Shown here: piece after piece, positions 157-41,590 of the stretch | Layout of the letters: every line of letters starts with the position of its first letter | Numbering within the stretch: the first letter of the stretch is position 1 | IMG/VR virus record: IMGVR_UViG_3300012096_000002 | Location: 1 to 51,413 of that record | Length of the DNA stretch: 51,413 bases | From: a virus | Lineage: Duplodnaviria; Caudoviricetes | Reading direction: 5' to 3' (one strand) | Translations under genes and position numbers: made by a program | The notes under the pieces: model-generated | What the model saw: the letters and a program-made list of their open reading frames with translations, nothing else | Told to the model about the DNA's origin: nothing | Database searches by the model: none

Positions 157-196
157 GGAGGGTGGTATGGTCCTGTCAATATGCCACCCTCTTTTT
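157..196 (+). terminator. Intrinsic terminator-like hairpin
   Basis: gagggtggtat ... atgccaccctc followed by ttttt, just before GGAGG RBS of next gene. Confidence 0.6.
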
Positions 197-209
197 ATTG
201 GAGGTACCG

Positions 210-836
210 ATGGATATCTTAGCCATCAATGGCGCTGCTCTAATGTGGACTGCGTTTACCCCAGACATTGCAATACTTGAGCAAAGCCAATTTCAATTGG
301 TGTTCGTATGTGATGATCTGATGTGTAATGGAAAGAATTATGAAATCATAGCCGATTGCTCGGCCAATATTGCCAGAGCATTTACTATGAGGACATATAA
401 TTTCTATCGAAAGAATACCGATGAAACTCCAGTAGTCATGAACCCATCAGGTAAAATGGAGACTGGATGTTACAAAATCAAAGGAGAAATCCATTCTGTG
501 CTCTCTTCTGAGATGCCTAGACTTGACAGACACTACCAGAATGGAGTACAATTCAAGCGTTATAGGACTAAACTTCTGTACCCAACTAGAGCTACAGGTC
601 TGATTGAGAATAAATCTGTGGATGGCAGTACTTTGCCCCATACCTTGCAAGGTAAGAAGCGGTTCATACTTCCAGAACGTGTTGATATTTTAGAGGCGTG
701 GATGTATATTGGTCTACAATCCTATTGGGGTAGTCTATTAGATGGGGGATTTGCTTTTGAACGAGTACGATTAGTAGAACCTGAAAGAGTTAGAAATTGG
801 TTACCGAAATATTACCATTGGCAGAACAGACCTTAA
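210..836 (+). CDS. Gamma-glutamylcyclotransferase (AIG2-like) fold protein, degenerate
   Basis: LVFVCDDLM..KNY, IKGEIHSV, LDRHY, EAWMY follow the GGCT pattern FVYGTL..GEVY..LD.LE..AWVY; start moved to ATG 210 after GGAGG. Confidence 0.6.
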   Translation: MDILAINGAALMWTAFTPDIAILEQSQFQLVFVCDDLMCNGKNYEIIADCSANIARAFTMRTYNFYRKNTDETPVVMNPSGKMETGCYKIKGEIHSVLSSEMPRLDRHYQNGVQFKRYRTKLLYPTRATGLIENKSVDGSTLPHTLQGKKRFILPERVDILEAWMYIGLQSYWGSLLDGGFAFERVRLVEPERVRNWLPKYYHWQNRP

Positions 837-2371: not shown

Positions 2372-2579
2372 CGATGAACGCTACAATGTCGAGGGAATTG
2401 TTCACAACTCTACTTCTCCTAACTATAACGAAGGAGATATAATAGTCCTACTAAACTTTAAAACCATAACACACTATCCAGCATATTTAGTAGATCCGTT
2501 ACATATTGAAGAGCATTGGATAGTGAAAACTCAAACCAATAAATACTTTATCCTGTACAAAAGTCAGCAACAACCATGA
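2319..2579 (+). CDS. Hypothetical protein
   Basis: Fills gap between helicase and UNG, ATGA overlap with UNG; true start may be downstream. Confidence 0.6.
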   Translation: MMPHQLTITAELKHWRLDDERYNVEGIVHNSTSPNYNEGDIIVLLNFKTITHYPAYLVDPLHIEEHWIVKTQTNKYFILYKSQQQP

Positions 2580-3241
2580 TCTATCCTTGGAAACTCAACT
2601 ACTGGCAATCCGGTGAATGGCAGGTGTGCAATGAGAGGCTTAAAGATCTGGAGAAGGCTGGGATTACATACAACCCAAAAAGGCAAGAGTTGTTTGGATC
2701 TCTACGATTGCTATCTGTTGGAGCTGTCAAGGTTTGCATTATTGGGCAAGACCCGTACCCCCAGTCCCAGTATGCCACCGGAGTTGCCTTCTCCATCCCC
2801 GACAAAACCACCAGAGAAGATTTCCCTCCTACACTTAACACGATTTTCAAAGAATATTCCTCTGATCTCAAATACCCCATACCTAGTAACGGTTCACTCC
2901 TACGATGGACAGCCCAAGGCGTCCTTCTATGGAATGCCATCCCAACTTGCACCGCTGGTAAATCATTATCTCACAACTGGGACGAATACTCCCACCTCAC
3001 CAAAGAAATCATCCAAACCCTCTCGAAAAAAGGCATCGTCTTCGTCTTCCTCGGATCTATTGCCAAAAGATATTTGGAAGAAGTAGATTTAAATAATAAT
3101 AAGGTTATTACTACCTCACATCCATCGCCTCGGGCTAATAGATTTTCAAGAACTCCATTCGAAGGATCTAGATTATTCTCCACTATCAACGATAAGTTAG
3201 TATCTTTAGGTCTAACCACTATCAACTGGAGATTGGAATAA
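2576..3241 (+). CDS. ung: Uracil-DNA glycosylase, family 1
   Basis: IIGQDPY, GVAFS, FPPTL, QGVLLWN, SHPSP motifs. Confidence 0.92.
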   Translation: MIYPWKLNYWQSGEWQVCNERLKDLEKAGITYNPKRQELFGSLRLLSVGAVKVCIIGQDPYPQSQYATGVAFSIPDKTTREDFPPTLNTIFKEYSSDLKYPIPSNGSLLRWTAQGVLLWNAIPTCTAGKSLSHNWDEYSHLTKEIIQTLSKKGIVFVFLGSIAKRYLEEVDLNNNKVITTSHPSPRANRFSRTPFEGSRLFSTINDKLVSLGLTTINWRLE

Positions 3242-3417
3242 TGGGCAAGCACCATACAGTTATGAAATTGAAGCGTATCGAACGGGAAGTTACTGAAGTA
3301 ATCAAGCTTATCCAGAAGGATAAGGATGATATCTTCTGTGATGAGTCGGTACGTAACTTGTCATGGGTGGTATCCTACCTCAAGATGACTATCCAAATCC
3401 TAAGACCTAATGACTAA
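3241..3417 (+). CDS. Small hypothetical protein (58 aa, not in ORF track)
   Basis: TAATG coupling to ung; MGKHHTVMKLKRIEREV...RPND. Confidence 0.6.
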   Translation: MGKHHTVMKLKRIEREVTEVIKLIQKDKDDIFCDESVRNLSWVVSYLKMTIQILRPND

Positions 3418-3577
3418 ATCACTACGTATTAAAATTGTGCGGTAAATTTGGAGGGTAGTTTGCGGTATAGAAAATGGTAGAAATCTAGTGCAAGCATACT
3501 TTTCTGGTACTTTGGTACCACTCAACAGAAATAACGCATCCCAGGGCATTTAAACACCTATCTACAGGGAATGAAAT

Positions 3578-3895
3578 ATGCTCAATTTAGTAGTCAACAA
3601 CGATAAGGAGGAAGAACAGAGGCTACCACAGCCCTTATTGAAGTTGAAAGGTAAGGGACCTACTAATTGGGATTGGCTTAGCCCGATGTCTTCAGGGACA
3701 GAGTTCCTCTGTGCCCATAAACAATCCTCAACTTGGTTGTTGACTAACTTCACCCATGGAGGTAAGAAAGAAGGTTGTGTATTACTAATACCTACAGCTA
3801 CCATGAACAATCATACTACCTGGATCTGGGTTGATCCGGTAGAATTCTGTAAAGTATTTGATCTTAAAACTATATTAGAAGAACCTGATGACTAA
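3578..3895 (+). CDS. Hypothetical protein
   Basis: 105-aa ORF with AGGGA RBS, overlaps next gene. Confidence 0.7.
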   Translation: MLNLVVNNDKEEEQRLPQPLLKLKGKGPTNWDWLSPMSSGTEFLCAHKQSSTWLLTNFTHGGKKEGCVLLIPTATMNNHTTWIWVDPVEFCKVFDLKTILEEPDD

Positions 3896-4094
3896 CAATT
3901 TGCAAGCAAATAATGTAATTAATATACCTGAACATAGTACCTTCTGGACTATGAACTTGTTAAAGAAATCTATTAGACATATGAAATCTAAGAATACAGA
4001 AGGACAATACGACATTGCAATCATTAAAGAAGAGAACATACTTAGGTCGTTCTTTGATTTCATTTCGAAATCTGCCGACCAGATCGCTGCTTAA
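3888..4094 (+). CDS. Hypothetical protein ending in -IAA
   Basis: Coupled ORF in replication operon. Confidence 0.65.
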   Translation: MTNNLQANNVINIPEHSTFWTMNLLKKSIRHMKSKNTEGQYDIAIIKEENILRSFFDFISKSADQIAA

Positions 4095-4107
4095 CATAGG
4101 AGTTCGA

Positions 4108-4218
4108 ATGTATCCTCACAAGACTACTGAACTACTGATAGCCGGTGCAGCTATCGCTATCGTCATCATCGGCATCGCCTATGCCTATGCTTACTACCCC
4201 TTGGGTATAATCAACTAA
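4108..4218 (+). CDS. Small single-TM membrane protein
   Basis: AGGAG RBS then ATG 4108; hydrophobic LLIAGAAIAIVIIGIAYAY. Confidence 0.6.
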   Translation: MYPHKTTELLIAGAAIAIVIIGIAYAYAYYPLGIIN

Positions 4219-4227
4219 TACAGAGAT

Positions 4228-4264
4228 ACTCCGGTCAGAGTCTCCTCTCTCCTCTGACCGGAGT
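4228..4264. promoter_or_regulatory. 13-bp perfect inverted repeat upstream of DNA polymerase
   Basis: actccggtcagag / ctctgaccggagt. Confidence 0.6.
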
Positions 4265-4281
4265 TACTTTAGGATATACTA

Positions 4282-6252
4282 TTGAAGGTTGTAATTGATA
4301 TTGAAACTAATTCTTTAATCAATCCCACTAAGATTTGGGTAGTGGTTTGTAAAAATATTGAGACAAATACCTATCACATTTTCCGTAACATAACTGAGGA
4401 CAGAACTGAACATGAAAACCTTACTAGATATCTTGAACAACTACGGACTGAAGCCAATAGTCTACTCATTGGGCATAATCTTCTTGGCTTTGATCTGCCT
4501 GTCCTTAGTTCCGCAGTACAGCTTCATAGTAAAATACTTCCTACTCAATGTATTGACACATTAATAATTTCTAAACTGGTAGACTACCCTAGACAAGGTC
4601 ATAGTATTGAAAGCTATGGTCTAGAATTTAGTCTACCTAAGATCCACTTCAATAAGTTTACTGAATATTCTCAAGAGATGGAGGACTACTGTGTACGAGA
4701 TGTCAATATTTGTCACAGGATCTATAGCAAGTATCTTAAGTATATTAGTAATCCGAGACATCAAGACTCAATACGATTGGAGCATGAGTTCCAAATTGTT
4801 GTCAACAATCTTCATGATAATGGTTTTTGTTTCAATAGCGAGCGGGCTACTGCACTACTCGCCAAAGTAAAGCATGAACTGTCTATCTTAGACAAGGATA
4901 TCTTAGAAGCATTTCCTCCTAAGCTTAAGCTTATAAGAGAAGTAACTCCTAAGGAGACTAAGTATGGTACTATTAGTCTTACAAGTATTCCTAAGGATCT
5001 ACGTAATCATACTGAAGAACTTAGTATTGATAGCCCGTTCTCGTATTGTACGTGGCAGACCTTCAATCCAAGCAGTCATAAACAGATTATATCTGTTCTT
5101 AATCAAGCAAATTGGAGACCAGTAGACAAGACACAGACACATATAGATACTGAGAGAGAACTGAGTAAATTAAAGTATACTAGGAGGACTCCTGAGCTTG
5201 ACACAAGACTTCAGGAGTTGTATGCTAAGCATGAAGTAATGAAGAAGGCAGGGTGGAAAGTAAACGAGACTAATCTCGAAACACTTCCCCAGACTGCCCC
5301 CTTATCCGCTCGCACCCTAGCGAAGCGTATCCTCCTTGAGTCCAGACGCCGTACCTTAAGCGAATGGTTGGCTCTAGTCCAACCAGATGGTCGCATCCAT
5401 GGTAAGTTCTATGGTATAGGTGCCTGGACTCATCGTATGGCCCACCAAAATCCCAACACTGCTAATATACCGAACGAGTTTGATACCAACAACAACAAGA
5501 AACTATATGGTAAAGAACTCCGTTCATTATGGTGTGCAGCTAAGAACCGATTACTAGTCGGCGTGGATGCAGAAGGTATCCAGTTGCGCATCTTTGCTCA
5601 TTACATCAATGATCCCGAGTTCACTAGAGCTCTAGTTGAAGGCAAGAAGGAGAACGGCAGTGATCCTCACACCCTTAACCAAAAGATTCTTGGGTCGGTA
5701 TGCAAGTCACGCCAAGCTGCTAAACGGTTCATTTATGCCTTGTTACTCGGCGCAGGATCCGGAAAGCTTACTGAAATATTGGGATGTACATCAGAGGAAA
5801 TGTCTATCGCTCTCGAGCGTCTTATGGGTAGATACCAAGGCTTTGCACATCTCAAAACAAATGTCATACCAGCCGATGCTATACGAGGTTGGTTTTCAGG
5901 CTTGGATGGTAGAAAGATTAGGATACCTGGCGACACTATCTCCCAACGACGGCACCTTTGCATGTCTGGTTATCTGCAAAGTGGTGAAGCGATTGTAATG
6001 AAATTAGCCACTCTCAAATGGTGGCAAAGACTAGAGAGTTATGGTGCTAAACTTGTTAACCTTGTACACGATGAATGGCAAGTAGAATGTCCCAACAATA
6101 TGACCACGGCATTGCATATCGCAAACCTGATGGCGAACTCGTTATCGTCAGTTGGAGAGGAACTGATGATGAAGTGCCCCTTGTCAGGGAGTTACTGGAA
6201 CGACACCTCGAACGACTATACGATAGCCCCTAACTGGAGTAAAACACATTGA
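4282..6252 (+). CDS. polA: Family A DNA polymerase with 3'-5' exonuclease
   Basis: ExoI DIET, GHNLLGFD; motif A DAEGIQLR; motif B RQAAKRFIYALLLG; motif C VHDE. Confidence 0.97.
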   Translation: MKVVIDIETNSLINPTKIWVVVCKNIETNTYHIFRNITEDRTEHENLTRYLEQLRTEANSLLIGHNLLGFDLPVLSSAVQLHSKILPTQCIDTLIISKLVDYPRQGHSIESYGLEFSLPKIHFNKFTEYSQEMEDYCVRDVNICHRIYSKYLKYISNPRHQDSIRLEHEFQIVVNNLHDNGFCFNSERATALLAKVKHELSILDKDILEAFPPKLKLIREVTPKETKYGTISLTSIPKDLRNHTEELSIDSPFSYCTWQTFNPSSHKQIISVLNQANWRPVDKTQTHIDTERELSKLKYTRRTPELDTRLQELYAKHEVMKKAGWKVNETNLETLPQTAPLSARTLAKRILLESRRRTLSEWLALVQPDGRIHGKFYGIGAWTHRMAHQNPNTANIPNEFDTNNNKKLYGKELRSLWCAAKNRLLVGVDAEGIQLRIFAHYINDPEFTRALVEGKKENGSDPHTLNQKILGSVCKSRQAAKRFIYALLLGAGSGKLTEILGCTSEEMSIALERLMGRYQGFAHLKTNVIPADAIRGWFSGLDGRKIRIPGDTISQRRHLCMSGYLQSGEAIVMKLATLKWWQRLESYGAKLVNLVHDEWQVECPNNMTTALHIANLMANSLSSVGEELMMKCPLSGSYWNDTSNDYTIAPNWSKTH

Positions 6253-6385
6253 ATACTGAATTGATTGATGGTCTAGTTAAATACTTAGATGATCCTCTTC
6301 GAGATGAACCTGTTAAGTTAACCCAAGACGAGATTGATTTAATTATTGATGCTCTAGTCTTTTACAAGGAAATGAATATACTCTA

Positions 6386-6880
6386 ATGGTTAAATACGGT
6401 AAGACTGAAATAGTATACATTCAGGGTAAAGTATCTTGGTTTAGAAATAAGATGCCTAATCAATGGGATAAATACTCTGTACAAATACACCCCAATCCTA
6501 AAGACTTGGAAGTCATCCGAGACTTACAAGCTAGAGGTTTAAAGAATACTATTAAGAAGGATGATGATGGATATTTCACCACTTTTTCCAGACCAGTGAG
6601 TAAACAATACCAGAACCATAAGGTGCAGACCTTTGCTCCACCTACTGTGACTGATAAAGATGGTAACATCTATGAAGGTCAGGTAGGTAATGGTAGTGAT
6701 GCTACCCTTAAACTAGAAGTCTATGAACATGCTACTCCTGCCGGTGGTAAGGCTGTAGCTGCTCGGTGGACTGCAGCTAGGATAGATAACTTAGTACCTT
6801 ATGCAACTGAATTGGATGCCTTCCCTGAACAGAAGCAAGCTATCTCTGGATTAAAGGAACAACCCGAACAGTTGTTCTAA
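6386..6880 (+). CDS. Phage single-stranded DNA-binding protein (gp2.5-like)
   Basis: Follows polA; VGNGS motif; acidic tail ending in Phe (EQPEQLF). Confidence 0.7.
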   Translation: MVKYGKTEIVYIQGKVSWFRNKMPNQWDKYSVQIHPNPKDLEVIRDLQARGLKNTIKKDDDGYFTTFSRPVSKQYQNHKVQTFAPPTVTDKDGNIYEGQVGNGSDATLKLEVYEHATPAGGKAVAARWTAARIDNLVPYATELDAFPEQKQAISGLKEQPEQLF

Positions 6881-6884
6881 AGAA

Positions 6885-8368
6885 CGAAGACCTAGCAGAT
6901 CCCATATGCAGCAGGAAACCACGTGCTAGGCTTCGGAGGAGGGCAGGAAATCTGACACCGTACTAGTTCTCGGTACAAGTTCAGAAGAGCCCTCCTCTAT
7001 ATTTAATTCTACAGCATGAACCCTCCACGCTTTGGGAAAGCTTGCTAAGGAGTAAGCAACCCCACCCTCCCACAGGACTCAGGTACCTGGCTGTCGATGA
7101 CCTTGGGTATAGCCCAAGAGGAAATGAACCAATGTGTAGCTTGATTTCAACTAAGGGAAATCAAGCGCATCCCTATCTGGAATGTAACTGCTGGGGTGAC
7201 GCCCCTCAACTTCGTTAGCAAGAGACCGTGTCCAGTAGTCAGGGGTCCTGCTTCTGAATGAATGTACGGTGAGCAAGGCAGTGAGCGAAGGTAGCGAGCA
7301 CAACCACACATGTGTCTCATAAGCACAATGGTGGTAGATAGCACACAGACGTCGCGTATGCTGCAGGCATGGTGCATGTTCTGCATGGACCTCCTTTAAG
7401 GAGGGCGCGTATGAGGGTAAAGGACTTGTCTTCACTGACTAACGATCTGAAGCGAAGTAAGGTGGAAAAGAAGTCTACCACTCCCTGTTGGTTCGATTCC
7501 AACGTCCCATGCATTGGGAACTGGCGGCAATGGTGGCGTGCAGAAAGCGGAGCGAGTTGAGGTTCGATGCCTCTAGAGCTTGGGTAGCAGATAGCTCGGT
7601 GAGTACCCACGTAGTAGATTGATAGACAACTGAGGTACGCTAACAGTGTGAAACCTGTTAGGTGGGTTCGACTCCCACCCCATGAACGTAATGTAGTAGG
7701 ATCGTGATAAAAGCGAGACCCGACTAATTGAGCATTAAGGGTATCAGATACTTCTCAACCTCTGTGACCCCACTGTTTCCACTGTTCGAGCAAGCTGTCC
7801 CATGAACTCAGCCCAGACGACCCTGTGGAGCTGGTTGCGTAGACGCAGCATCATCTGACTGTGCACTGGATACTTACACCTCCAGGCTTTACGGAGCAGT
7901 ATGTACGAACCGGAAGGCTGATGATGTGGAGCACTGGCTATTTACCAGCTGGCTCAATAACTACTGTCCTACAGTGGACAGAGATGTGATCTACAGTCCG
8001 TTATGATGGTAGAAAGCAAGTATCCCTAGGTCGGGTTCCTAGTATTGAGCTTGTGACGGCCACAATCTGTTAGAGCATCAAGCCGCAGACTACTACGACT
8101 AGGTGCAACGCTGAAGTGTATAACCAAGCATGCACTGAATGGGTAGCTAAGACGTCCCAGCTGAGTCCAATTACATGGATGATACGGGATGCAAACCCGT
8201 CTAGCAAGTCCATAGAACTTCCTATTCGATGGCAGTCCCACGACGGTAAACTGCCTCTACAAGATCTGAAGGGAGTCTGAAGTGAATATCAGGTCCTCTC
8301 AACAGAAGCCTCGACCTCCTTAAAAACAATAACAGGCAGAGGTGGGCCGGGTTCGAGTCCACCTCTGT
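6885..8368 (+). ncRNA. Candidate large structured ncRNA (or RNA cluster) with multiple T-loop hairpins
   Basis: No credible ORF over ~1.5 kb; many hairpins; T-loop arms at 7487-7503, 7559-7573, 7661-7679; long-range pairs 7070-76/7822-28 and 7382-90/7504-13. Confidence 0.7.
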
Positions 8369-8388
8369 TACGAGAAAGGAGATGTGTC

Positions 8389-8682
8389 ATGAAGAAAGTT
8401 ATGCTGGTCGACCCGGATGATTTCTTCACCGGAGGTAGTCGATCTAAACGTGAAGTAATGACTGACGATTTGAAGATATACAAGAAGTGGAAGAAGTTCT
8501 TGAAAAAGGAAGAAGAAGACGCTAAGAAGAAAAAGGATGTCCCTACCAAATGGTGGGAGAAGAAGTCTGTTGCCGAGAGGACAGTTATTATTGCTATCCT
8601 CGGGCCACCATTCGGTATTCTATACGTCTATGGTTTGCTCCAGCTAGTTAAATTGATGGCTGAAACTATAGGAGTACACTGA
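8389..8682 (+). CDS. Hypothetical membrane protein
   Basis: AAGGAG RBS; charged N-terminus, C-terminal hydrophobic segment. Confidence 0.8.
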   Translation: MKKVMLVDPDDFFTGGSRSKREVMTDDLKIYKKWKKFLKKEEEDAKKKKDVPTKWWEKKSVAERTVIIAILGPPFGILYVYGLLQLVKLMAETIGVH

Positions 8683-8684
8683 TA

Positions 8685-8942
8685 ATGCCTGAATGGTATG
8701 AAATGATGGATGATCTTGATGGTCCTGAACAGGAGTGTCATGCACTCGATGCACACGTAACTAATTCACACAATGGAGGCAAGGTAACTTGCTATAAATG
8801 TAATGGTTTCATCCTATATAAGGATGTAGTTTCATATCTAGATCATCAACACAGAGATGAATTTCCTAGAGTACACTTCCACAAGGAATGCTACAATCCT
8901 TACGAACATTATTATGGATTAGATAAACCCAACCGTGACTGA
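8685..8942 (+). CDS. Hypothetical Zn-binding protein
   Basis: CYKC ... HFHKEC (LIM/PARP-finger-like spacing). Confidence 0.6.
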   Translation: MPEWYEMMDDLDGPEQECHALDAHVTNSHNGGKVTCYKCNGFILYKDVVSYLDHQHRDEFPRVHFHKECYNPYEHYYGLDKPNRD

Positions 8943-9795
8943 AATACGAACATTAATACAAGATATCTACCATCTGGTAGGTAAACAAGAGAACTGGCTG
9001 ACAAGTGATATCGCTACTAAATTCACATCTGAACTCACACTTAAACTCCAAGGATCCTTCAGTCCGCAAAGCAGCTCTGGATTACGTCTCTCAGGTATGG
9101 GCCCAAAGTGCCCGTGTCAGCTGTGGCACTCGGTACATACCCCACTGGATGCAGAGCCACTCCCACCCTGGGCCAGGATCAAATACACCTACGGACACAT
9201 ACTTGAAAGTCTTGTAATCGCAATGGCTAAGGCAGCCGGACATGAGGTAACAGGAGAACAAGATGCTGTATCTGTTGATGGGATCATCGGCCACAGAGAT
9301 TGTGTTATTGACGGGTACGTCGTTGACGTTAAGTCTGCTAGCAGCCGTGCTTTCCAAAAGTTCAAGGATGGTTCAATCGCATCCGATGATGGCTTTGGCT
9401 ATCTTGATCAACTTGATGGGTATCTTGTGGGGTCCACAGATGATCCACTGGTAAGATTTAAAGATAAAGGTTATCTATTAGCAATCGACAAACAATTAGG
9501 ACATATGTGTTTACATGAGCATACTTCGCGCCCGCAAAGCATTAGAGAAAGAATTCGAGATTATAGAACTATCGTCGCTCTTAATAGAGCTCCGAGCTGT
9601 ACTTGCGAAGAAGTACCCGAAGGAAAGTCCGGAAACTATCGCCTGGGCATTAGAGCAAGCTACAATGCGTTTAAGTACCAGTGTAAGCCACAGCTTCGAA
9701 CCTTCCTCTATTCAGATGGACCAAGATACCTAACTAAAGTAGTCAGGAAGCCTGATGTACCAGAAATAGATAGGCATGGAAGAATAGTTTATTGA
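8935..9795 (+). CDS. PD-(D/E)XK exonuclease (Cas4/lambda-exo-like)
   Basis: YGHILE, GHRDCVIDGYVVDVKS, YLDQLDGY. Confidence 0.8.
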   Translation: MTEIRTLIQDIYHLVGKQENWLTSDIATKFTSELTLKLQGSFSPQSSSGLRLSGMGPKCPCQLWHSVHTPLDAEPLPPWARIKYTYGHILESLVIAMAKAAGHEVTGEQDAVSVDGIIGHRDCVIDGYVVDVKSASSRAFQKFKDGSIASDDGFGYLDQLDGYLVGSTDDPLVRFKDKGYLLAIDKQLGHMCLHEHTSRPQSIRERIRDYRTIVALNRAPSCTCEEVPEGKSGNYRLGIRASYNAFKYQCKPQLRTFLYSDGPRYLTKVVRKPDVPEIDRHGRIVY

Positions 9796-10502
9796 TTATA
9801 AGACCATTGTTTAGTTTTTATGGCGCTAAGTTTAGAGCATCTAAATATTATCCTCAACCTAAGTACAATAAAATAATAGAACCTTTTGCAGGATCAGGTT
9901 GTTATTCCCTACGATATTGGAAAAACCACGATGTCTTATTAAATGAAATCGACCCTGTGATATATGAATTGTGGAGATTATTGATTAATATTTCTTCCCA
10001 CACAGTGTTACATTTACCAGATGAAATAAGTGATCTATATGAAAAAGATCCTATGCGATCTCTAATTGGATTTTGGTATAATAAAGGTCAAGTCAAACCG
10101 ACAACTACTAAATGTAAATGGATGGTAGGAAAAGACTCCAAAGGAAGAAACTGGAAAGATCAATTTTGGGGAGACCGTGTGCGTAAACGAATAGCAAACA
10201 ATCTCCATGCAATAAGAAGGTTTCAGATAACTAACAAAGATTACTCAGAATTAGAAAATGAAGAAGCAACTTGGTTTATAGATCCTCCTTATAAAAAGAA
10301 AGGAACTCATTACATCTACAATGAAATAGATTATGATCACCTAGGTAAATGGTGTCTGGAAAGAAAAGGACAAATAATTGTCTGTGAACAAGAAGGCGCA
10401 GATTGGTTAGATTTTAAACCATTTAGAAAATTAAGAGCGTTGAAGAAGGAATATAGTAATGAAGTATGCTATGGAAGAGAAAACAGTCAAAGAATTAATT
10501 GA
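9792..10502 (+). CDS. Dam/D12-class DNA adenine methyltransferase
   Basis: FYGAK, IEPFAGSG (SAM binding), FIDPPY (catalytic). Confidence 0.88.
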   Translation: MIIRPLFSFYGAKFRASKYYPQPKYNKIIEPFAGSGCYSLRYWKNHDVLLNEIDPVIYELWRLLINISSHTVLHLPDEISDLYEKDPMRSLIGFWYNKGQVKPTTTKCKWMVGKDSKGRNWKDQFWGDRVRKRIANNLHAIRRFQITNKDYSELENEEATWFIDPPYKKKGTHYIYNEIDYDHLGKWCLERKGQIIVCEQEGADWLDFKPFRKLRALKKEYSNEVCYGRENSQRIN

Positions 10503-10737
10503 CGCATATCTATCTATAGACGATAGAATGTACAATGCCAGTGTTATCTATGGTCCTAATACATACGATCGTCTTGAAGAACAAGCAAATGTAGAACCAC
10601 ATTCCGGTTCTAATTCAGGTAAAAATCTAATTGAGAGAGGTCTTTGGGAAATAGTCGGATACGGTCCTACTTCAAGAAATGCAGATGCAGCTATCTTCGC
10701 ACCTATTGATCCTAATTATTATATAACGAGAGACTAG
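10474..10737 (+). CDS. Hypothetical protein
   Basis: ORF between methylase and endonuclease; start uncertain (10459 or 10471). Confidence 0.55.
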   Translation, partial: EEKTVKELIDAYLSIDDRMYNASVIYGPNTYDRLEEQANVEPHSGSNSGKNLIERGLWEIVGYGPTSRNADAAIFAPIDPNYYITRD

Positions 10738-10768
10738 ACAGGTCTTTGGAAACCATGTATAATTAAGC

Positions 10769-11101
10769 ATGCCTCGTAATAAATTCGAAGCCAGGATCTA
10801 TGCTTGGCTCAAGCACAAGAAGATTAAGTTTAAGTATGAGTCAGAAAAGATTCCTTACCTCATCGCAGGTCACTACATACCTGACTTCATTATCACTACC
10901 CACACAGGTAAGATCTATGTCGAAACCAAAGGACACTTCAGACCCGAAGCTAAACGTAAGATGGCAGCTGTCAAGAAGCTTAATCCCATGCTTGATATTA
11001 GGATACTCTTCTACTCATACAGCAAATCCAGTGTTAAGTGGTGTGTTAAGTATAACTTCCCGTATGCTATAGGAGACATCCCCAATGAATGGTTGGCTTG
11101 A
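10769..11101 (+). CDS. T7 endonuclease I-like Holliday junction resolvase
   Basis: RNKFE..YE..YIPDF..YVETKG..LDIRILF..WC.KYNF. Confidence 0.9.
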   Translation: MPRNKFEARIYAWLKHKKIKFKYESEKIPYLIAGHYIPDFIITTHTGKIYVETKGHFRPEAKRKMAAVKKLNPMLDIRILFYSYSKSSVKWCVKYNFPYAIGDIPNEWLA

Positions 11102-11176
11102 AGGTTTAGTCTGGTTCATCTTCGGAGCAGCTTTTATGTTGCTTGTTCTACTCATAGTAGGAATATATTCAATTAC

Positions 11177-11320
11177 GTGAACTTAACTACTCTGCTTGAT
11201 GTCTATACCTTGGAAGAGATACTTGAATTGAACGACAAGACTCCTGAAGACTGCTTAGAATTCCTCGTTGAAGAGAAGTTTGTGAAGTTACCTAACATCA
11301 AACCCTTGGATTTTGATTAA
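11177..11320 (+). CDS. Small acidic hypothetical protein (47 aa, not in track)
   Basis: GTGA coupling; MNLTTLLDVYTLEEILELNDKTPEDCLEFLVEEKF. Confidence 0.55.
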   Translation: MNLTTLLDVYTLEEILELNDKTPEDCLEFLVEEKFVKLPNIKPLDFD

Positions 11321-11458
11321 TGCTTAGAGCTATTAAATTAAATCCCAAACATCCTGACTCCATAAGAGTTGTGGGTAGTGTATTAAAGAATATTGGATTA
11401 ATTCAAATAGAAGATATTCAACTTCTAATTGATGGTTCTATTGAAATTGTAATATCTA

Positions 11459-11650
11459 ATGATCAAACATCCCAGCAGCCGAGCTGAGAGGCTACGTCTC
11501 AAACACTTAAAGGATACTTTTGAACCTAAATCTACCCGATCCTCTTATGTTCGAAAGAGCAAGGAGGCTATCGAAGAAAAGGAACTCGAAGATGAGCTTA
11601 GGATCCAAGTATCTGGCTCGCAAGAGGAAACAGAATTCTCAGCCCATTAA
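11459..11650 (+). CDS. Hypothetical protein
   Basis: 63-aa ORF, TAATG coupling. Confidence 0.55.
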   Translation: MIKHPSSRAERLRLKHLKDTFEPKSTRSSYVRKSKEAIEEKELEDELRIQVSGSQEETEFSAH

Positions 11651-11840
11651 GACTGAGATATCTCTCGCTAACGTAGGTGATGGTATCATGCCTATGTTAT
11701 ACACAACCAATATTTTAAAGCCTAAAGATGAAGTCTTGGAAATTGACTTCGACTGGCATAACATTAAGGACAATATCTGTCCCATTACTATCTATGTAAA
11801 AGGAGCATCCAAGACTAAGATGAACGACAATAGTGGCTAG
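11592..11840 (+). CDS. Hypothetical protein
   Basis: AAGGA RBS before internal ATG (MSLGSKYLARKRK) of track ORF 11520..11840. Confidence 0.55.
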   Translation: MSLGSKYLARKRKQNSQPIKTEISLANVGDGIMPMLYTTNILKPKDEVLEIDFDWHNIKDNICPITIYVKGASKTKMNDNSG

Positions 11841-12081
11841 CAGAAACTACCCGAAAGAAACTAAGTATGAAGAGGCTCCTACGCAGGTTAGGCGTCGAGA
11901 AGCTCGGAATAGAGCCCGTCGAAAAGCACTCAAGGCAGGACGAGTTCACAAAGGAGACTCCCTCGAACTTGACCACGTTGGATACCATAGGACTGGTTCT
12001 CTTGACCGTATTCCCACTCGTGTTGTTAGCAAGCATTATAACCTCGCTAGACAACCACCAACAAAAGGAAGAAGGAAATGA
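11833..12081 (+). CDS. Small HNH-type protein (T7 gp7.7-like)
   Basis: RN.ARRK..K.G.VHKGD..ELDH..RVVS..N. Confidence 0.7.
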   Translation: MASRNYPKETKYEEAPTQVRRREARNRARRKALKAGRVHKGDSLELDHVGYHRTGSLDRIPTRVVSKHYNLARQPPTKGRRK

Positions 12082-12251
12082 ATGAAATCCTTCCAGATAA
12101 CACCGTGGCATTGGATCACTTCGTCCTTGGTCTCGATGATGAAGGCAATGAAGTTAAGATTAAGATCGATGAAGCCGGTGAACTCCACTACTTCCAGGAC
12201 ATTGAAGATGAGGATAGCTTCAAAGATGAAGCAGAAATCCTTGTCCACTAA
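12078..12251 (+). CDS. Small highly acidic protein (57 aa, not in track)
   Basis: ATGA coupling; MNEILPDNTVALDHF...DIEDEDSFKDEAEILVH; 18 D/E vs 3 K. Confidence 0.7.
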   Translation: MNEILPDNTVALDHFVLGLDDEGNEVKIKIDEAGELHYFQDIEDEDSFKDEAEILVH

Positions 12252-12287
12252 CTCCAGTGGTATCCTCCCTTGAGCCACTGGTAAACT

Positions 12288-12325
12288 GACCCCGGTTCCG
12301 CTAACGCAGGCCGGGGTCCTTTTTT
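12288..12325 (+). terminator. Intrinsic terminator
   Basis: gaccccgg...ccggggtc followed by ctttttt. Confidence 0.8.
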
Positions 12326-12343
12326 GATTGTACTTACAATCTA

Positions 12344-13048
12344 TTGGAATATATAATGAATAAATCTGATGCTAGAGTTTGGTATAACTATACGTTTACT
12401 GGCAATAAATATATAATTGAATTTGAGGATTATTATAAAACCTATGAAGAATGGTTTGATAAAAATATACTTGATTATAAATGCTACTTAGCACCTATTG
12501 AAGAAACGCAGGTCGATTCGGTGCCCTGCCAAGAAGGGAATAATCCCATGTATATCGAAGATATGGTTTGCACTCATCCGGTAAAGAAGTGCCCTCAGGC
12601 TTCTGCTGCCTCTGTGATCCAGGTGGTCACTGAGGCCAAGCCTGATACTGCTACTGACCAGCGTAAGTATCTTGCTGCTCGTGCTCACGACATCCGGTAC
12701 GCCAAGTTTGAAGAGCTGCGAGATATGTTCTTCATCAATGAGCCGGCTGGTCCGAAGAGTGTTGCTGAGTTGAAAGAGCGTCTGAAGAAGGGCCTCTTCA
12801 CAATCGAGAAGCAGAAGTACTCGGACTACGAAGATGATGAGGAGCATGACAATTTCTACTGGCGTGATGCCTTCTCTTGGCGGACACCAGAGACTCAGAA
12901 GGATGAGAAAAGTCACAATGCTGCCTACAAAGAATTGATGAAATTCTATGAGGACATCATTGACCAGATCAAGATCCTTGAACCCAAGGAAGGTCTGGCT
13001 CTGCTGGATGATCTGAAGAAGTGGAAACCGTCGAAGGCTAAGAAGTAA
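12344..13048 (+). CDS. Hypothetical protein; likely main start at in-frame ATG 12548
   Basis: GAAGGGAATAATCCC-ATG RBS at 12548; 5' part is much more AT-rich. Confidence 0.7.
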   Translation: MEYIMNKSDARVWYNYTFTGNKYIIEFEDYYKTYEEWFDKNILDYKCYLAPIEETQVDSVPCQEGNNPMYIEDMVCTHPVKKCPQASAASVIQVVTEAKPDTATDQRKYLAARAHDIRYAKFEELRDMFFINEPAGPKSVAELKERLKKGLFTIEKQKYSDYEDDEEHDNFYWRDAFSWRTPETQKDEKSHNAAYKELMKFYEDIIDQIKILEPKEGLALLDDLKKWKPSKAKK

Positions 13049-41083: not shown

Positions 41084-41088
41084 TTAAA

Positions 41089-41292
41089 TTACTTCTTTCT
41101 TGCTTGTTTTAGTCCTCTGACGTATCCACCTTTATGGGCTATCTTTATAAGATCTTCAGTTAGACCATTAGTCTGTTTCTTAATTGCATCCGCTATCTTT
41201 TTATTGATGTGGATTTGAATGGTATTATATAATAAGATAACTACAGCTACAGTTGTAGCTATGTCCCCTAAAGTAGGATCAACCATAGTCAT
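41089..41292 (-). CDS. Small membrane protein
   Basis: N-terminal TM, basic tail. Confidence 0.6.
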   Translation of the reverse strand: MTMVDPTLGDIATTVAVVILLYNTIQIHINKKIADAIKKQTNGLTEDLIKIAHKGGYVRGLKQARKK

Positions 41293-41590
41293 GTAGGTTT
41301 ATTATCAAAGACATGAGATAAAGCAGAGAATCCTGAGATCTCTGGCTTCTTTAACTCTATCTTTTTAGGCTTCATATTAGCTTTATCGTCCTTTTGACCT
41401 TTGTTACCTTTACCCATAAATTATCCTTGTGTTGCATTGGGACCAGTATTAGGTCCAATTGCATCCAAGCCTAATTCCTTCTTGGAATGCGGTGGAAAGT
41501 TACGTGCTGGATGACTACTAACGTCCATAGGGGTCGCCATAGTGACGCCATAGTCTACGTTGGGATTGAGATCCAGGTTGACGTGAGCCA

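What the first reader, a model, noticed from the sequence alone, without database searches (positions are those of the whole stretch)
6885..8368. ~1.5 kb candidate giant structured ncRNA in the replication arm
Seen: genes elsewhere abut or overlap, but ~1.5 kb between SSB and ORF 8389 has no ORF with a credible RBS, looks more GC-rich than its flanks and is tiled with helices. Examples are gaggagggc 6936-44/6989-97, gcttgatttc 7139-48/7157-66 (10 bp perfect), cttgggt 7102-08/7112-18, ggtgga 7461-66/7474-79, ctaacag 7640-46/7655-61 and gcagaggtgggc 8336-47/8357-68. Nested long-range pairs (ccacagg 7070-76 with cctgtgg 7822-28; ctggctg 7087-93 with cagcccag 7809-16) would close a ~750-nt domain, followed by a second ~500-nt structured domain. 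Known: phages carry large ornate RNAs such as GOLLD and ROOL. Inference: this is one or two such RNAs, and I cannot match it to any class I recognise.
Basis: partly seen in the sequence, partly recalled or inferred. Interest (0 to 1): 0.9.

Follow-up and report, generated by a model that had tools for sequence, protein, structure and literature searches.

The report
Giant structured RNA in soil phages
The gene-free 1.4 kb stretch is a real, evolutionarily conserved, heavily folded non-coding RNA element that matches no catalogued RNA family, making it a candidate for one of the largest "ornate" RNAs carried by a bacterial virus.

Summary
The window is a complete 51,413-bp phage genome with terminal repeats. 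The ORF-poor, GC-richer block after the SSB-like gene is real.

Thirty-eight near-full-length copies, 16 distinct at 97% identity, sit at the same locus in related viral and metagenome contigs.

It is not coding. Its period-3 substitution signal is 0.1, against 27.8-169.7 for three neighbouring genes.

It is structured. A 227-pair consensus has 89.1% of cells paired, against 36.5-40.2% for slid partners. Compensatory changes occur in 138 of 227 pairs, and 0 of 500 shuffles reach this. A structure trained on 6 sequences holds in 5 held-out ones.

The conserved unit runs about 7011-8370, or 1,148-1,758 nt in relatives. It has about ten domains in fixed order. The central ~380-nt domain carries three tRNA-type T-arm hairpins.

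No Rfam family, tRNA or tmRNA matches.

Expression, transcript ends and function are untested. My best guess is a stable ornate RNA that presents tRNA/rRNA-like modules.

The parts
6881..6999 (+). Variable 5' spacer after the SSB-like gene. It holds a long hairpin (about 6935-6998) followed by UAUAUUUAAUU. It is not part of the conserved RNA.
   Evidence: Fold -27.9 kcal/mol, z -2.46. It is absent or different in the closer relatives; in L003, L050 and L002 the upstream ORF stop abuts the conserved block. Only L005 shares 48 nt at 85% identity.
7011..7094 (+). Domain 1. It is closed by ACAGC/GCUGU (7011-15/7090-94). It holds the invariant C-rich tract ACCCCACCCUCC (7059-7070) and the hairpin 7073-76/7086-89, whose loop is ACUCAGGUA.
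   Evidence: Helix 1 is paired in 67 of 75 cells with 3 covarying pairs. Helix 4 is paired in 64 of 64 cells with 4 of 4 covarying. Present in 15 of 16 variants; the missing one is cut by its contig end.
7102..7118 (+).
   Evidence: 71 of 78 cells paired, 4 covarying pairs. Present in 16 of 16 variants.
7135..7169 (+).
   Evidence: Fold z -5.89. The insertion is present in only 3 of 16 variants, with different sequence.
7170..7297 (+). Domain 2. It is closed by 7170-77/7290-97, with nested helices and the hairpin 7195-7201/7213-19.
   Evidence: Helix 7 is paired in 90 of 98 cells with 6 covarying pairs. Helices 8-11 are 83-93% paired. Present in 15 of 16 variants.
7298..7342 (+). Domain 3, a small branched hairpin.
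   Evidence: Helices 13-15 are 81-85% paired with 6 covarying pairs. An alternative GUCU/AGAC pairing (7314-17/7347-50) is also seen.
7353..7734 (+). Domain 4, the central ~380-nt multi-branch domain. It is closed by a long interrupted stem: 5' strand about 7415-7462 and 3' strand about 7679-7721.
   Evidence: Helix 25 (7442-48/7699-7705) is paired in 110 of 112 cells with 5 covarying pairs. Helix 26 is paired in 75 of 80 cells with 4 covarying. Helix 22 is paired in 64 of 64 cells.
7447..7452 (+). Five of the six bases of CUGAAG are invariant. It faces the invariant AGUAGG (7695-7700) across the closing stem, giving an AGUA/GAA internal loop of the bulged-G (loop E / S-turn) type.
   Evidence: Invariant columns in 16 of 16 variants. 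The motif name and geometry are recalled, not tested with a tool.
7486..7504 (+). T-arm hairpin 1 (stem GUUGG/CCAAC, loop UUCGAUU). It is directly followed by hairpin 7505-7519.
   Evidence: 90 of 95 cells paired, 5 covarying pairs. It is one of only 2 strict T-arm matches in the whole 51 kb on either strand. Present in 15 of 16 variants.
7549..7599 (+). Three-way junction. It is closed by CGGAGC/GCUCGG and holds T-arm-like hairpin 2 (7559-7573, loop UUCGAUG) and a small hairpin (7578-88).
   Evidence: The closing helix varies compensatorily between variants (CUGAGC/GCUCAG, GAAGCU/AGCUUC, AGCAGC/GCUGCU, GGGAG/CUCCC), read from the re-alignment of 13 variants. Helix 32 is paired in 64 of 70 cells. 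The module is absent in L004 and L039, and in L003 it fills the columns but carries no T-arm.
7642..7678 (+). Hairpin with the conserved loop GUGAAA (7642-58), followed after 3 nt by T-arm hairpin 3 (7662-78, loop UUCGACU).
   Evidence: Helix 34 is paired in 84 of 95 cells with 6 of 6 pairs covarying. Helix 35 is paired in 79 of 80 cells. Present in 16 of 16 variants. The covariance model R1 finds this module in the distant L005 (E 1.4e-6) and more weakly in L009 (E 0.008).
7689..7721 (+). The most conserved stretch of the family: UAAUG.AGUAGG.....GAUAAAAG. It forms the 3' strand of the domain-4 closing stem.
   Evidence: Invariant columns. This motif retrieved 29 true homologues among 30 metagenome matches.
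7739..7771 (+). Domain 5 hairpin.
   Evidence: Helices 37-38 are 87.5% paired, with 7 of 8 pairs covarying.
7837..7981 (+). Domains 6-8: a branched domain (7848-7927) and hairpins 7929-55 and 7964-81. It includes the conserved UAACCUCC near 7877-7883.
   Evidence: Helices 40-50 are 73-94% paired with many covarying pairs. Present in 16 of 16 variants. CCUCC is conserved in 14 of 16 variants.
7982..8211 (+). Domain 9. It is closed by 7982-85/8208-11. It has a variable insertion at 7990-8075 and a 9-bp hairpin at 8102-12/8127-36.
   Evidence: Helix 51 is paired in 56 of 64 cells with 4 of 4 pairs covarying. Helix 54 is paired in 126 of 143 cells with 5 pairs changed on both sides. The insertion is present in 4 of 16 variants.
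8313..8323 (+). Conserved GACCUCCUUAA, an anti-Shine-Dalgarno-like tract. It could pair with the AGGAG ribosome-binding site of the next gene (8377-8381).
   Evidence: CCUCC occurs here in 12 of 16 variants; the others have CCCCC or CCACC. The predicted pairing with AGGAG fills 68 of 80 cells but has no covariation.
8335..8370 (+). 3' terminal hairpin of 11-13 bp. Its loop contains GUUCGA (T-loop-like). No U-tract follows it.
   Evidence: Fold -24.9 kcal/mol, z -4.76. 163 of 176 cells paired, 9 of 11 pairs covarying. The terminator scan did not call it.
8389..8682 (+). Downstream gene o97. It encodes a small lysine-rich protein with a hydrophobic C-terminus and has no family match. It is a conserved neighbour, not part of the RNA.
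   Evidence: Translation. No PHROG or Pfam hit. Homologues follow the RNA in L001-L004, L006, L020 and L021.

Best explanation
Identity (the confidence value below refers to this part). About 7011-8370 on the + strand is a previously uncatalogued family of very large, multi-domain structured non-coding RNA. It measures 1,148-1,758 nt from first to last conserved helix in 16 variants. It is fixed between the SSB-like gene and a small membrane-type protein / Cas4-like exonuclease, in the replication module of a clade of uncultivated ~51-kb podovirus-like phages found in soil metagenomes.

Shown:
- Conserved synteny.
- Nucleotide conservation equal to that of the DNA polymerase gene.
- No codon periodicity.
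- About 58 helices with extensive compensatory change.
- The same domains in the same order in all variants.
- Three tRNA-type T-arm hairpins and a fourth T-loop-like 3' hairpin.
- No match to any Rfam family, tRNA or tmRNA.

Inferred:
- It is read rightward, together with the flanking genes. In several relatives the upstream stop codon abuts the first helix, and no promoter or canonical terminator was found.
- It folds as one co-inherited unit. T-loops and an invariant AGUA/GAA bulged-G-type loop would serve as tertiary or protein-docking modules.

Mechanism I commit to (about 0.3, inferred only). It is a stable trans-acting ornate RNA particle, possibly multimeric or protein-bound like GOLLD/ROOL. 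It displays tRNA- and rRNA-like surfaces: T-arms, an S-turn-type loop, and conserved unpaired CCUCC tracts. These would engage or decoy host tRNA- and ribosome-handling factors during infection. I do not think it is a tRNA array or a simple cis-regulator.
For: Homologues and synteny:
- 9 of 9 SSB-anchored loci and 11 of 12 Cas4-like-anchored loci (one starts at the Cas4-like match and holds no upstream DNA) keep 1.2 kb or more (up to about 4.1 kb) of ORF-poor DNA at this place.
- nhmmer finds the block in 29 of 30 metagenome motif hits.
- 38 near-full-length copies collapse to 16 clusters at 97% identity.

Conservation and non-coding nature:
- Nucleotide identity to 5 relatives is 0.60-0.71 for the RNA, against 0.66-0.71 for polA.
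- Period-3 power ratio is 0.1 for the RNA, against 169.7 (polA), 42.3 (SSB-like) and 27.8 (Cas4-like).
- The longest stop-free runs are 82-175 aa, against a shuffle range of 84-155 aa.

Structure:
- 227 pairs have 89.1% of 3,537 cells paired, against 36.5-40.2% when partners are slid.
- 138 pairs change on both sides, against 43-58 when slid.
- The covariation score is 0.409, against 0.066-0.094 when slid. 0 of 500 shuffles reach any measure.
- Held-out test: the structure from 6 sequences is 880 of 1,186 cells canonical in 5 other sequences, against 424-470 when slid. Double changes number 204, against 70-101.
- A structure-blind scan finds 21 antiparallel covarying helices, against 4 parallel controls.

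Strand:
- Both strict T-arm matches in the whole 51 kb are on the + strand, inside the region.
- There are 379 G-U cells against 121 A-C cells. The alifold energy is -296.5 (+) against -274.9 (-).

Unit character:
- 14 of the 15 core modules checked are present in 15-16 of 16 variants (the T-arm-2 junction in 14), in the same order.

No known family:
-.

For the mimicry idea:
- T-arm loops read G-UUCGAnU-C.
- CCUCC density is 3.65 per kb here against 0.64 per kb elsewhere, while GGAGG is not enriched. Three sites are conserved.
- The AGUAGG/CUGAAG bases are invariant in 16 of 16 variants, apart from one base of CUGAAG.
Against: - There is no expression evidence. No RNA run holds the sequence, so a discrete transcript and its ends are unknown.
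- Single-sequence folding energy is mostly no better than dinucleotide shuffles: domains give z -1.6 to +0.8 and 200-nt windows mostly give |z| < 2.
- No covariation-supported helix ties the domains together. The two long-range closures that alifold proposes (7096-98/8388 and 7773-75/8303-05) have little or no compensatory change: one pair and none. The block could therefore be several RNAs.
- The strand preference from energies is modest.
- The variants all come from one phage clade, and the effective sequence number is low (2.58 for the block).
- The shuffle control ignores phylogeny, and R-scape was not available.
- The functional reading rests on motif resemblance only. The CCUCC/AGGAG pairing shows no covariation. 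No palindromic kissing loops that covary were found. The S-turn assignment is recalled.
- The host is unknown.
Confidence: 0.88

Rival explanations
1. The block is not one giant RNA. It is a co-transcribed string of several independent structured RNAs of roughly 40-380 nt each, released by host processing enzymes. The T-arm/stem modules would serve as RNase P- or RNase Z-like processing signals, as in phage tRNA clusters and their stable small RNAs.
For: Nearly all well-supported helices are local or close single domains (7011-7094, 7170-7297, 7353-7734, 7848-7927, 7982-8211). The two helices that would join domains have little or no covariation: one compensatory pair and none. Modules such as the T-arm-2 junction, the 7135-69 hairpin and the 7990-8075 insertion come and go between variants. 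The scan for extra helices gave nothing convincing between domains.
Against: The core domains tested are present in 14-16 of 16 variants, in the same order, despite only about 60-70% identity. That argues for one functional unit. Domain 4 alone is about 380 nt and closed by a strongly covarying stem. The T-arms lack an adjoining 7-bp acceptor stem and a CCA tail. No internal promoters or terminators were found.
Confidence: 0.35
2. It is a cis-acting structured intergenic region of the polycistronic replication mRNA. It would stabilise the message or control translation of the downstream gene by hiding its ribosome-binding site. The conserved CCUCC at 8315-8319 would pair with AGGAG at 8377-8381.
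For: The RNA lies between same-strand genes with no detected promoter or terminator. The upstream stop codon abuts the block in L003, L050 and L002. The CUCCU/AGGAG pairing is possible in 68 of 80 cells, and the stable 3' hairpin sits between the two partners.
Against: 1.15-1.76 kb and about 58 conserved helices far exceed any known leader. The RBS pairing shows no compensatory change: the variants with CCCCC or CCACC keep GGAGG or AGGAG. Conservation is highest in the centre (7689-7713), far from either gene.
Confidence: 0.08
3. It is a decayed tRNA gene cluster, or tRNA-derived attachment-site remnants, with no function of its own.
For: There are three hairpins with canonical T-arm sequence. 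ARAGORN at very relaxed settings draws an intron-containing cloverleaf around 7578-7687.
Against: ARAGORN at default settings finds 0 tRNAs in the window and in 9 loci. The relaxed calls change isotype, strand and position between homologues. The Rfam tRNA model gives no hit even at E up to 10. Compensatory change is spread over about 58 helices, most of them unlike tRNA. No integrase was found among the 30 distinct proteins scanned. A decaying locus would not match polA in conservation.
Confidence: 0.03
4. It is a large ribozyme or mobile RNA, for example a very divergent ORF-less group I or group II intron or an RNase P-like RNA.
For: Its size and helix density are in the range of large ribozymes. 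T-loops and S-turn-type loops are building blocks of such RNAs (recalled).
Against: There is no Rfam hit to intron, RNase P or small-ribozyme models in the window, in 9 loci at gathering score, or in 7 sequences in E-value mode. The single group II D5-type hit, in L022, has E 2.4, lies on the minus strand and is not repeated in other homologues. There is no interrupted host gene: polA and the SSB-like gene are intact and o97 has its own start.
Confidence: 0.06
5. It is the replication origin region, whose transcript primes or opens the origin (R-loop or primer RNA).
For: It sits inside the replication module, among the primase/helicase, polA, SSB-like and exonuclease genes.
Against: It is GC-richer than the genome rather than AT-rich. 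There are no iterons; the direct repeats are only short T-loop and CCUCC words. The pattern of selection is on RNA base pairs across 1.4 kb.
Confidence: 0.04

Closest known systems
GOLLD RNA (Rfam family; accession not looked up)
   Same: Both are phage-borne, very large, multi-domain RNAs with many covarying helices, variable and conserved parts, unknown function and a link to tRNA biology. Passages of PMC12286853 say GOLLD exceeds 800 nt, is encoded in phages and prophages often near tRNA islands, and sometimes carries tRNAs in its linker.
   Different: There is no match to the Rfam model at any threshold tried. There are no true tRNA genes in the whole phage genome. This RNA is about 1.5-2 times longer. 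It carries T-arm hairpins embedded in its own fold rather than neighbouring tRNAs. It sits in a replication module. Multimer formation is untested.
ROOL RNA
   Same: It is a large ornate phage/prophage RNA with pseudoknots, no known protein partner and unknown function (PMC12286853 passages). Relatives of the present RNA carry a covarying H-type pseudoknot module, read by eye from the alignment.
   Different: There is no Rfam match. ROOL is about 580-660 nt. The sequence and helix layout are unrelated.
OLE RNA
   Same: It is a large (~600 nt) ornate bacterial RNA with many conserved helices (PMC12286853 passages).
   Different: OLE is a chromosomal RNA of extremophilic Firmicutes with dedicated protein partners (recalled). 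There is no Rfam match here, and this RNA is phage-borne.
tRNA T-arm / tRNA-like structures (tmRNA, viral TLS, Y-RNA-like YrlA)
   Same: Three hairpins have a 5-bp stem closed by G-C and the loop UUCGAnU, as in tRNA T-arms. T-arm 3 directly abuts the 3' strand of a long stem, as a T-arm abuts the acceptor stem.
   Different: There is no cloverleaf, no conserved anticodon, no 7-bp acceptor stem and no CCA. ARAGORN reports 0 tRNA and 0 tmRNA. No Rfam tRNA, tmRNA or YrlA hit was found.
IMG/VR candidate structured RNAs (csRNAs) of PMC10690425
   Same: They are covariation-supported RNA motifs mined from intergenic regions of the same viral contig collection, and they include 'tRNA-like' candidates (passages read).
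   Different: Those candidates are 29-151 nt long, so at most fragments of this 1.15-1.76-kb element could be among them. Their tables are supplementary files that I could not open, so overlap is unknown.

Membership tests
GOLLD RNA | Significant match to the Rfam GOLLD covariance model (conserved 3' domain) | tested here: not met
   cmscan gave 0 hits at gathering score in the window and 9 loci. There was no GOLLD hit at E up to 10 on 6700-8500 or at E up to 5 on 6 homologous loci.
GOLLD RNA | Location beside or around tRNA genes in a phage or prophage | tested here: not met
   It is phage-borne, but ARAGORN finds no tRNA gene in the 51,413-bp genome or in 9 related loci.
ROOL RNA | Significant match to the Rfam ROOL covariance model | tested here: not met
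   The same searches gave no ROOL hit.
tRNA | Cloverleaf with acceptor, D, anticodon and T arms that tRNA finders can detect | tested here: not met
   ARAGORN at default settings gave 0. Relaxed settings gave calls that are inconsistent across 10 or more homologues. The Rfam tRNA model gave no hit at E up to 10.
tRNA | T-arm: 5-bp stem, G53-C61, loop U54 U55 C56 R57 A58 | tested here: met
   It is met at 7487-7503 and 7662-7678 strictly, and at 7559-7573 with a shorter stem. The stems covary.
tmRNA | tRNA-like domain plus a tag reading frame | tested here: not met
   ARAGORN tmRNA search gave 0. There was no Rfam tmRNA hit.
Group I / group II introns, RNase P RNA, small ribozymes | Match to the Rfam core models | tested here: not met
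   There was no hit in the window or 9 loci at gathering score. A lone D5-type hit (E 2.4) on the opposite strand of L022 is not shared by other homologues.
Large ornate structured ncRNA (operational class: over about 500 nt, non-coding, many covarying helices) | Non-coding | tested here: met
   Period-3 ratio is 0.1 against 27.8-169.7 in neighbouring genes. No ORF is conserved, and open stretches fall within the shuffle range.
Large ornate structured ncRNA (operational class) | Extensive conserved secondary structure with compensatory changes | tested here: met
   (89.1% paired; 138 of 227 pairs with double changes; 0 of 500 shuffles) and the held-out test.
Large ornate structured ncRNA (operational class) | Exists as a discrete, abundant transcript | not testable with these tools
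   No RNA run holding the sequence was listed. The host is unknown.
Large ornate structured ncRNA (GOLLD/ROOL-type) | Homo-oligomeric assembly (nanocage), shown by cryo-EM or by covarying palindromic loops | tested here: inconclusive
   The only conserved loop palindrome is the invariant UCGA of two T-loops, which does not covary. No structural method was available.

The most novel reading that the evidence does not exclude
This is a new class of giant phage RNA, larger than GOLLD, that works as a single folded particle. Its embedded tRNA T-arms, its sarcin-ricin/loop-E-type AGUA/GAA loop and its several exposed anti-Shine-Dalgarno-like CCUCC tracts would make it a composite mimic of the translation apparatus. 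It would soak up or redirect host factors that recognise tRNA elbows, the ribosomal S-turn or the 16S 3' end. Examples are tRNA- or rRNA-cleaving abortive-infection nucleases, RNase P, TruB/TrmA, or Shine-Dalgarno-bearing host mRNAs. Alternatively, it is itself a large ribozyme.
Probability: 0.15. Interest if true: 0.95.

Novelty: new variant of a known kind. Interest (0 to 1): 0.82.

Why it matters
- Natural RNAs longer than about 500 nt with dense conserved structure are very few. The known ones are either central machines (rRNA, RNase P, self-splicing introns, tmRNA) or, like GOLLD, ROOL and OLE, unexpected RNA-only assemblies whose biology is still unknown (PMC12286853, passages read).
- This element is 1.15-1.76 kb and is kept as tightly as the phage DNA polymerase gene. 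It has about 58 helices and built-in tRNA-type T-arms, and no catalogue entry.
- It would extend that short list. It would be the largest phage-borne example and a ready cryo-EM and biochemistry target.
- The T-arm, S-turn-like and CCUCC modules give concrete, testable handles on what such RNAs do in infection. That question has been open since GOLLD was described.

Tried and rejected
Negative or unhelpful results:
- Thermodynamic test: single-sequence MFE z-scores are unremarkable. I kept this as evidence against, but it is not decisive.
- RNA evidence: no RNA holder was listed. Nine soil-metagenome DNA runs from 6 studies hold the stretch. I did not use read laying, because contigs of DNA runs cannot show a transcript.
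- Cultured relatives: blastn (distant mode) of the region against 50,697 phage records found no match. The best polA relatives among cultured phages are at most 38% identical.
- Host or prophage search: the 25-nt core motif hit 3 prokaryote contigs. None was confirmed by nhmmer, and the CM hits there cover only the motif. About that many hits are expected by chance for 19 fixed bases (my estimate). One metagenome hit, L052, was likewise unconfirmed.
- Own promoter: the 5' junction word occurs once in the genome. The sigma-70 scan found 0 sites on the + strand and no canonical + strand terminator. In relatives the conserved TAAT box coincides with the upstream stop codon.
- Inter-domain or pseudoknot helices: the scans gave a T-loop-1/7867-71 candidate that dissolved on inspection. 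Nine further unpredicted candidates stand against 4 parallel controls, and I relied on none of them.
- Pairing between UGAAC words and T-loops: I considered this by eye and saw no compensatory change.
- Palindromic kissing loops: only the invariant UCGA was found.
- Relaxed ARAGORN: the calls are inconsistent between homologues.
- Distant loci (L007-L009, L023, L026, L029): they keep an ORF-poor interval, and L007, L008, L023 and L029 (with L025) also carry + strand T-arm hairpins; L009 and L026 have none. They show no DNA similarity to the family and only weak CM hits, so homology is open.
- A second ORF-free gap at 41084-42431 turned out to be filled with small abutting minus-strand ORFs.
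- Literature: four full-text searches and passages of three papers turned up no description of this RNA. The supplementary tables of PMC10690425, which list 8,495 IMG/VR motifs of 29-151 nt, were closed and may contain fragments of it.
- I did not use structure prediction, fold search, complex prediction or the large protein-database searches (search for homologous proteins, the search of protein representatives, the protein-atlas search), because the question concerns an RNA.


Full report
**What the window is.** The window is a complete virus record of 51,413 bp with direct terminal repeats. Genes run rightward from 162 to 13,048. The 'SSB' has no PHROG or Pfam hit, so that label is unverified. 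A leftward structural block holds terminase, a portal/adaptor-type protein (PHROG 'head-tail adaptor'), tail spike and internal virion protein genes, which points to a podovirus-like phage. The closest cultured relatives by polA are roseophages at 38% identity or less. The stretch occurs in 9 soil-metagenome DNA runs from 6 studies.

**Checking the observation.** Genes on both sides abut or overlap. Between 6881 and 8388 the longest ORF on either strand is 97 aa. GC is 0.50-0.51 at 7001-8000 in a genome that mostly sits at 0.33-0.47. Three hairpins are individually more stable than shuffles (z -2.46, -5.89 and -4.76). Taken as a whole, however, the single sequence does not fold better than dinucleotide shuffles. 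Windows of 200 nt give z between about -2.7 and +1.1. Whole domains give -1.6 to +0.8, with only the 3' end at -3.6. From this one sequence, 'tiled with helices' is therefore not beyond chance. The case has to rest on comparison with relatives.

**Relatives.**
- Searching viral contigs with the SSB-like protein gave 9 loci, and with the Cas4-like protein 12 loci.
- Every locus that holds both flanking genes has 1.2 kb or more (up to about 4.1 kb) of ORF-poor DNA at the same place.
- blastn and nhmmer show the block itself is conserved at 70-86% in local segments.
- A 25-nt core motif then retrieved 30 metagenome stretches, of which 29 contain the block by nhmmer.
- Including the window, there are 38 near-full-length copies in 16 clusters at 97% identity, plus several distinct partial copies.
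- From first to last conserved helix the element measures 1,148-1,758 nt, and 1,360 nt in the window.
- Three motif hits in prokaryote genomes and one in a 70-kb metagenome contig were not confirmed, so I treat them as chance.

**Not coding.** Substitutions in the block have no codon periodicity: the period-3 power ratio is 0.1. The same test on the same six genomes gives 169.7 for polA, 42.3 for the SSB-like gene and 27.8 for the Cas4-like gene. The longest stop-free stretches in the 16 variants (82-175 aa, in varying frames) match the shuffle range of 84-155 aa. Yet the block is as conserved as polA, at 0.60-0.71 against 0.66-0.71 nucleotide identity.

**Structured.**
- RNAalifold, run in my own script on the 16-sequence MAFFT alignment A3, gives 227 pairs in 58 helices.
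- The count of structure pairs reports 89.1% of 3,537 cells paired, against 36.5-40.2% when partners are slid by 1-3 columns.
- It reports 138 pairs with changes on both sides, against 43-58 when slid.
- The covariation score is 0.409, against 0.066-0.094 when slid. 0 of 500 shuffles reach any of the five measures.
- That structure was derived from the same sequences, so I also trained on 6 sequences and tested on 5 others.
- In the held-out set, 880 of 1,186 cells are canonical (slid: 424-470 of 1,120-1,168). Among cells that differ from the window, 375 of 670 are canonical (slid: 267-295 of 700-724). Double-change canonical cells number 204, against 70-101.
- A scan that ignores the predicted structure finds 21 antiparallel runs of at least 4 pairs with at least 3 covarying pairs, against 4 in a parallel-orientation control. 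Twelve of the 21 are helices of the prediction.
- Caveats: all sequences come from one phage clade; the alignment is not structure-aware; and the shuffle control ignores phylogeny.

**Strand.** The two strict T-arm matches in the entire genome are on the + strand inside the region, and there are none on the - strand. In relatives such hairpins also occur only on the + strand of the syntenic interval. Within the predicted pairs there are 379 G-U cells against 121 A-C cells. The + strand alifold energy is somewhat better, at -296.5 against -274.9. The flanking genes are on the + strand.

**Anatomy.** Window coordinates below come from helices and presence counts.
- *5' spacer (6881-6999).* This variable spacer holds a long hairpin found, among the 16 variants, only in the window's own cluster, with 48 nt shared with the distant L005. 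It is not part of the family.
- *Start of conservation.* Conservation begins at an A/T-rich TAAT box. In L003, L050, L002, L006 and L041 this box is the stop codon of the upstream ORF.
- *Domain 1 (7011-7094).* It has an invariant ACCCCACCCUCC tract and the hairpin 7073-76/7086-89, which is paired in 64 of 64 cells.
- *Hairpin 7102-18.*
- *Variable hairpin 7135-69.* Present in 3 of 16 variants.
- *Domain 2 (7170-7297) and domain 3 (7298-7342).*
- *Domain 4 (7353-7734).* A long interrupted stem closes it. Its helix 7442-48/7699-7705 is paired in 110 of 112 cells with 5 covarying pairs.
  - Across that stem, CUGAAG (five of six bases invariant) faces invariant AGUAGG. This has the sequence and orientation of a bulged-G (loop E / S-turn) motif as I recall it; I did not test that.
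  - Inside the domain are T-arm 1 (7486-7504), stacked on hairpin 7505-19, and a three-way junction (7549-7599) with T-arm-like hairpin 2.
  - It also holds an AGUAG...GAUAGA segment (7608-32), a hairpin with a conserved GUGAAA loop (7642-58, 6 of 6 pairs covarying) and T-arm 3 (7662-78, 79 of 80 cells paired).
  - The family's most conserved words, UAAUG.AGUAGG and GAUAAAAG (7689-7713), form the 3' strand of the closing stem.
- *Domain 5 (7739-71), domains 6-8 (7837-7981) and domain 9 (7982-8211).* Domain 9 carries an insertion present in 4 of 16 variants.
- *Variable linker,* followed by the conserved GACCUCCUUAA (8313-23).
- *3' hairpin (8335-70).* It has 11-13 bp, with 163 of 176 cells paired and 9 of 11 pairs covarying. 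Its loop holds GUUCGA and no U-tract follows.
- *Downstream gene.* The o97 ribosome-binding site (8377-81) and start codon (8389) follow at once.
- *Pseudoknot module in relatives.* Most relatives carry a covarying H-type pseudoknot after GAGACCCGA, which I read by eye. The window has lost it.
- *Module presence.* All core modules are present in 14-16 of 16 variants, in the same order.

- 7102-08/7112-18, 7640-46/7655-61 (in a slightly shifted register) and 8336-47/8357-68 are well supported.
- 7461-66/7474-79 is moderately supported, with 63 of 78 cells paired.
- 6936-44/6989-97 and 7139-48/7157-66 are real hairpins but lie in non-conserved insertions.
- The two long-range helices meant to close a ~750-nt domain fail. 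They are 57.1% paired against a shuffle mean of 56.4% (188 of 500 shuffles reach it). The covariation score is 0.068 against 0.062, and the 3' partner letters are missing (gaps) at most of these pairs in 6 of 16 variants. Part of the 5' strand is also committed to the perfectly covarying local hairpin.

**Comparison with known families.**
- Rfam 15 gives nothing at gathering score in the window or in 9 loci.
- In E-value mode the region yields only three eukaryotic snoRNA/miRNA chance hits (E 0.75-6.9).
- Six homologous loci yield six unrelated hits. Only one lies inside the block (a D5-type hit on the opposite strand of L022), and none is shared between loci.
- ARAGORN finds no tRNA or tmRNA in the window or 9 loci. 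At very relaxed settings its calls change isotype, strand and place from one homologue to the next.
- The element is therefore not GOLLD, ROOL, OLE, a tRNA array, tmRNA, RNase P RNA or a recognisable intron.
- In kind it is closest to GOLLD and ROOL. Those are large ornate phage RNAs of unknown function linked to tRNA islands, GOLLD sometimes with tRNAs in its linker, and both form RNA-only nanocages (PMC12286853, passages read).
- It differs from them in four ways: it is about twice the size, it has no tRNA genes nearby, its T-arms are built into its own fold, and it sits in the replication module.
- A 2023 survey of IMG/VR intergenic regions reported 8,495 motifs of 29-151 nt, including tRNA-like ones (PMC10690425, passages read). 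Fragments of this element could be among them, but its tables are supplements that I could not open.
- Four full-text searches found no description of this RNA.

**How it probably works.** The shown facts are a conserved multi-domain fold, T-arm modules, invariant AGUAGG facing a nearly invariant CUGAAG, and conserved CCUCC tracts. CCUCC occurs at 3.65 per kb here against 0.64 per kb elsewhere, with no matching excess of GGAGG. Sites near 7066, 7879 and 8315 are conserved in 15, 14 and 12 of 16 variants. Everything else is inferred.
- *Transcription.* No promoter or canonical terminator was found, and in some relatives the upstream stop codon abuts the first helix. I therefore infer co-transcription with the replication genes. 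The 3' hairpin is a likely end or stabiliser.
- *One unit or several.* The strict co-inheritance and fixed order of all domains favours one functional unit. No covarying inter-domain helix proves a single molecule, so I give the 'several processed RNAs' rival 0.35.
- *Mechanism.* The mechanism I commit to, at about 0.3, is a stable ornate RNA particle. Its T-loops and S-turn-type loop would both build its tertiary fold and present tRNA/rRNA-like surfaces to host factors. The CCUCC tracts would be available for Shine-Dalgarno-type pairing, including the downstream gene's RBS. That last pairing is possible in 68 of 80 cells but does not covary.
- *Weaker readings.* A purely cis-regulatory role (0.08), a ribozyme or mobile RNA (0.06), an origin/primer RNA (0.04) and decayed tRNAs (0.03) fit the data less well.

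**Verdict.** The proposed domain closure, the left boundary and the 'better than chance' folding of the single sequence do not stand. Expression, transcript ends, oligomeric state, host and function remain to be shown.

Noticed in passing
window 7722-7730; L001 7324-7352 and the homologous place in L002, L004, L006, L020, L021, L034, L037, L039, L041, L047, L050 (alignment A5 columns about 170-222): Most relatives carry a 25-45-nt module after GAGACCCGA that reads as an H-type pseudoknot with compensatory changes in both stems (for example ACUG...ACACCA...CAGU...UGGUGU against CCUG...ACGCCA...CAGG...UGGCGU). The window and L003 have lost it.
   Followed up: partly
L007 6487-10625; L008 3540-6167; L023 1-1827; L029 1601-5000: More distant relatives (SSB-like protein 39-49% identical where it lies in the locus; L023 holds none) keep a 1.8-4.1-kb ORF-poor interval at the same locus. 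It carries 2-4 strict T-arm hairpins, all on the + strand, yet has no tRNA call and no DNA similarity to the family described here. These may be further, very divergent versions of the RNA, or different RNAs.
   Followed up: partly
window 6943-6990 and L005 6593-6640: The window-specific 5' hairpin shares 85% identity over 48 nt with the otherwise distant L005, but is absent from closer relatives. This hints at a small mobile or recombining hairpin module.
   Followed up: no
window 7000-8370: CCTCC occurs 5 times (3.65 per kb) against 0.64 per kb in the rest of the + strand, without a matching excess of GGAGG. Three of the sites are conserved across the family.
   Followed up: partly
window 162-836: The first gene has a borderline Pfam match to GGACT (gamma-glutamyl cyclotransferase, AIG2-like): 23.0 bits against a cutoff of 22.8. 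That is an unusual function for a phage early gene.
   Followed up: no
The label rests only on its position and its acidic C-terminal tail ending in F, a resemblance I recall to T7 gp2.5-type proteins.
   Followed up: partly
window 41084-42431: A second stretch without ORFs of 80 aa or more is packed with small abutting minus-strand ORFs (42-75 aa) and has low GC (0.35-0.43). It is not a second RNA candidate.
   Followed up: yes
L006 about 6520-6610 and L041 (upstream of the RNA): In some relatives a small hydrophobic ORF is inserted between the SSB-like gene and the RNA. Its stop codon falls in the same TAAT box where the SSB-like gene ends in others.
   Followed up: no
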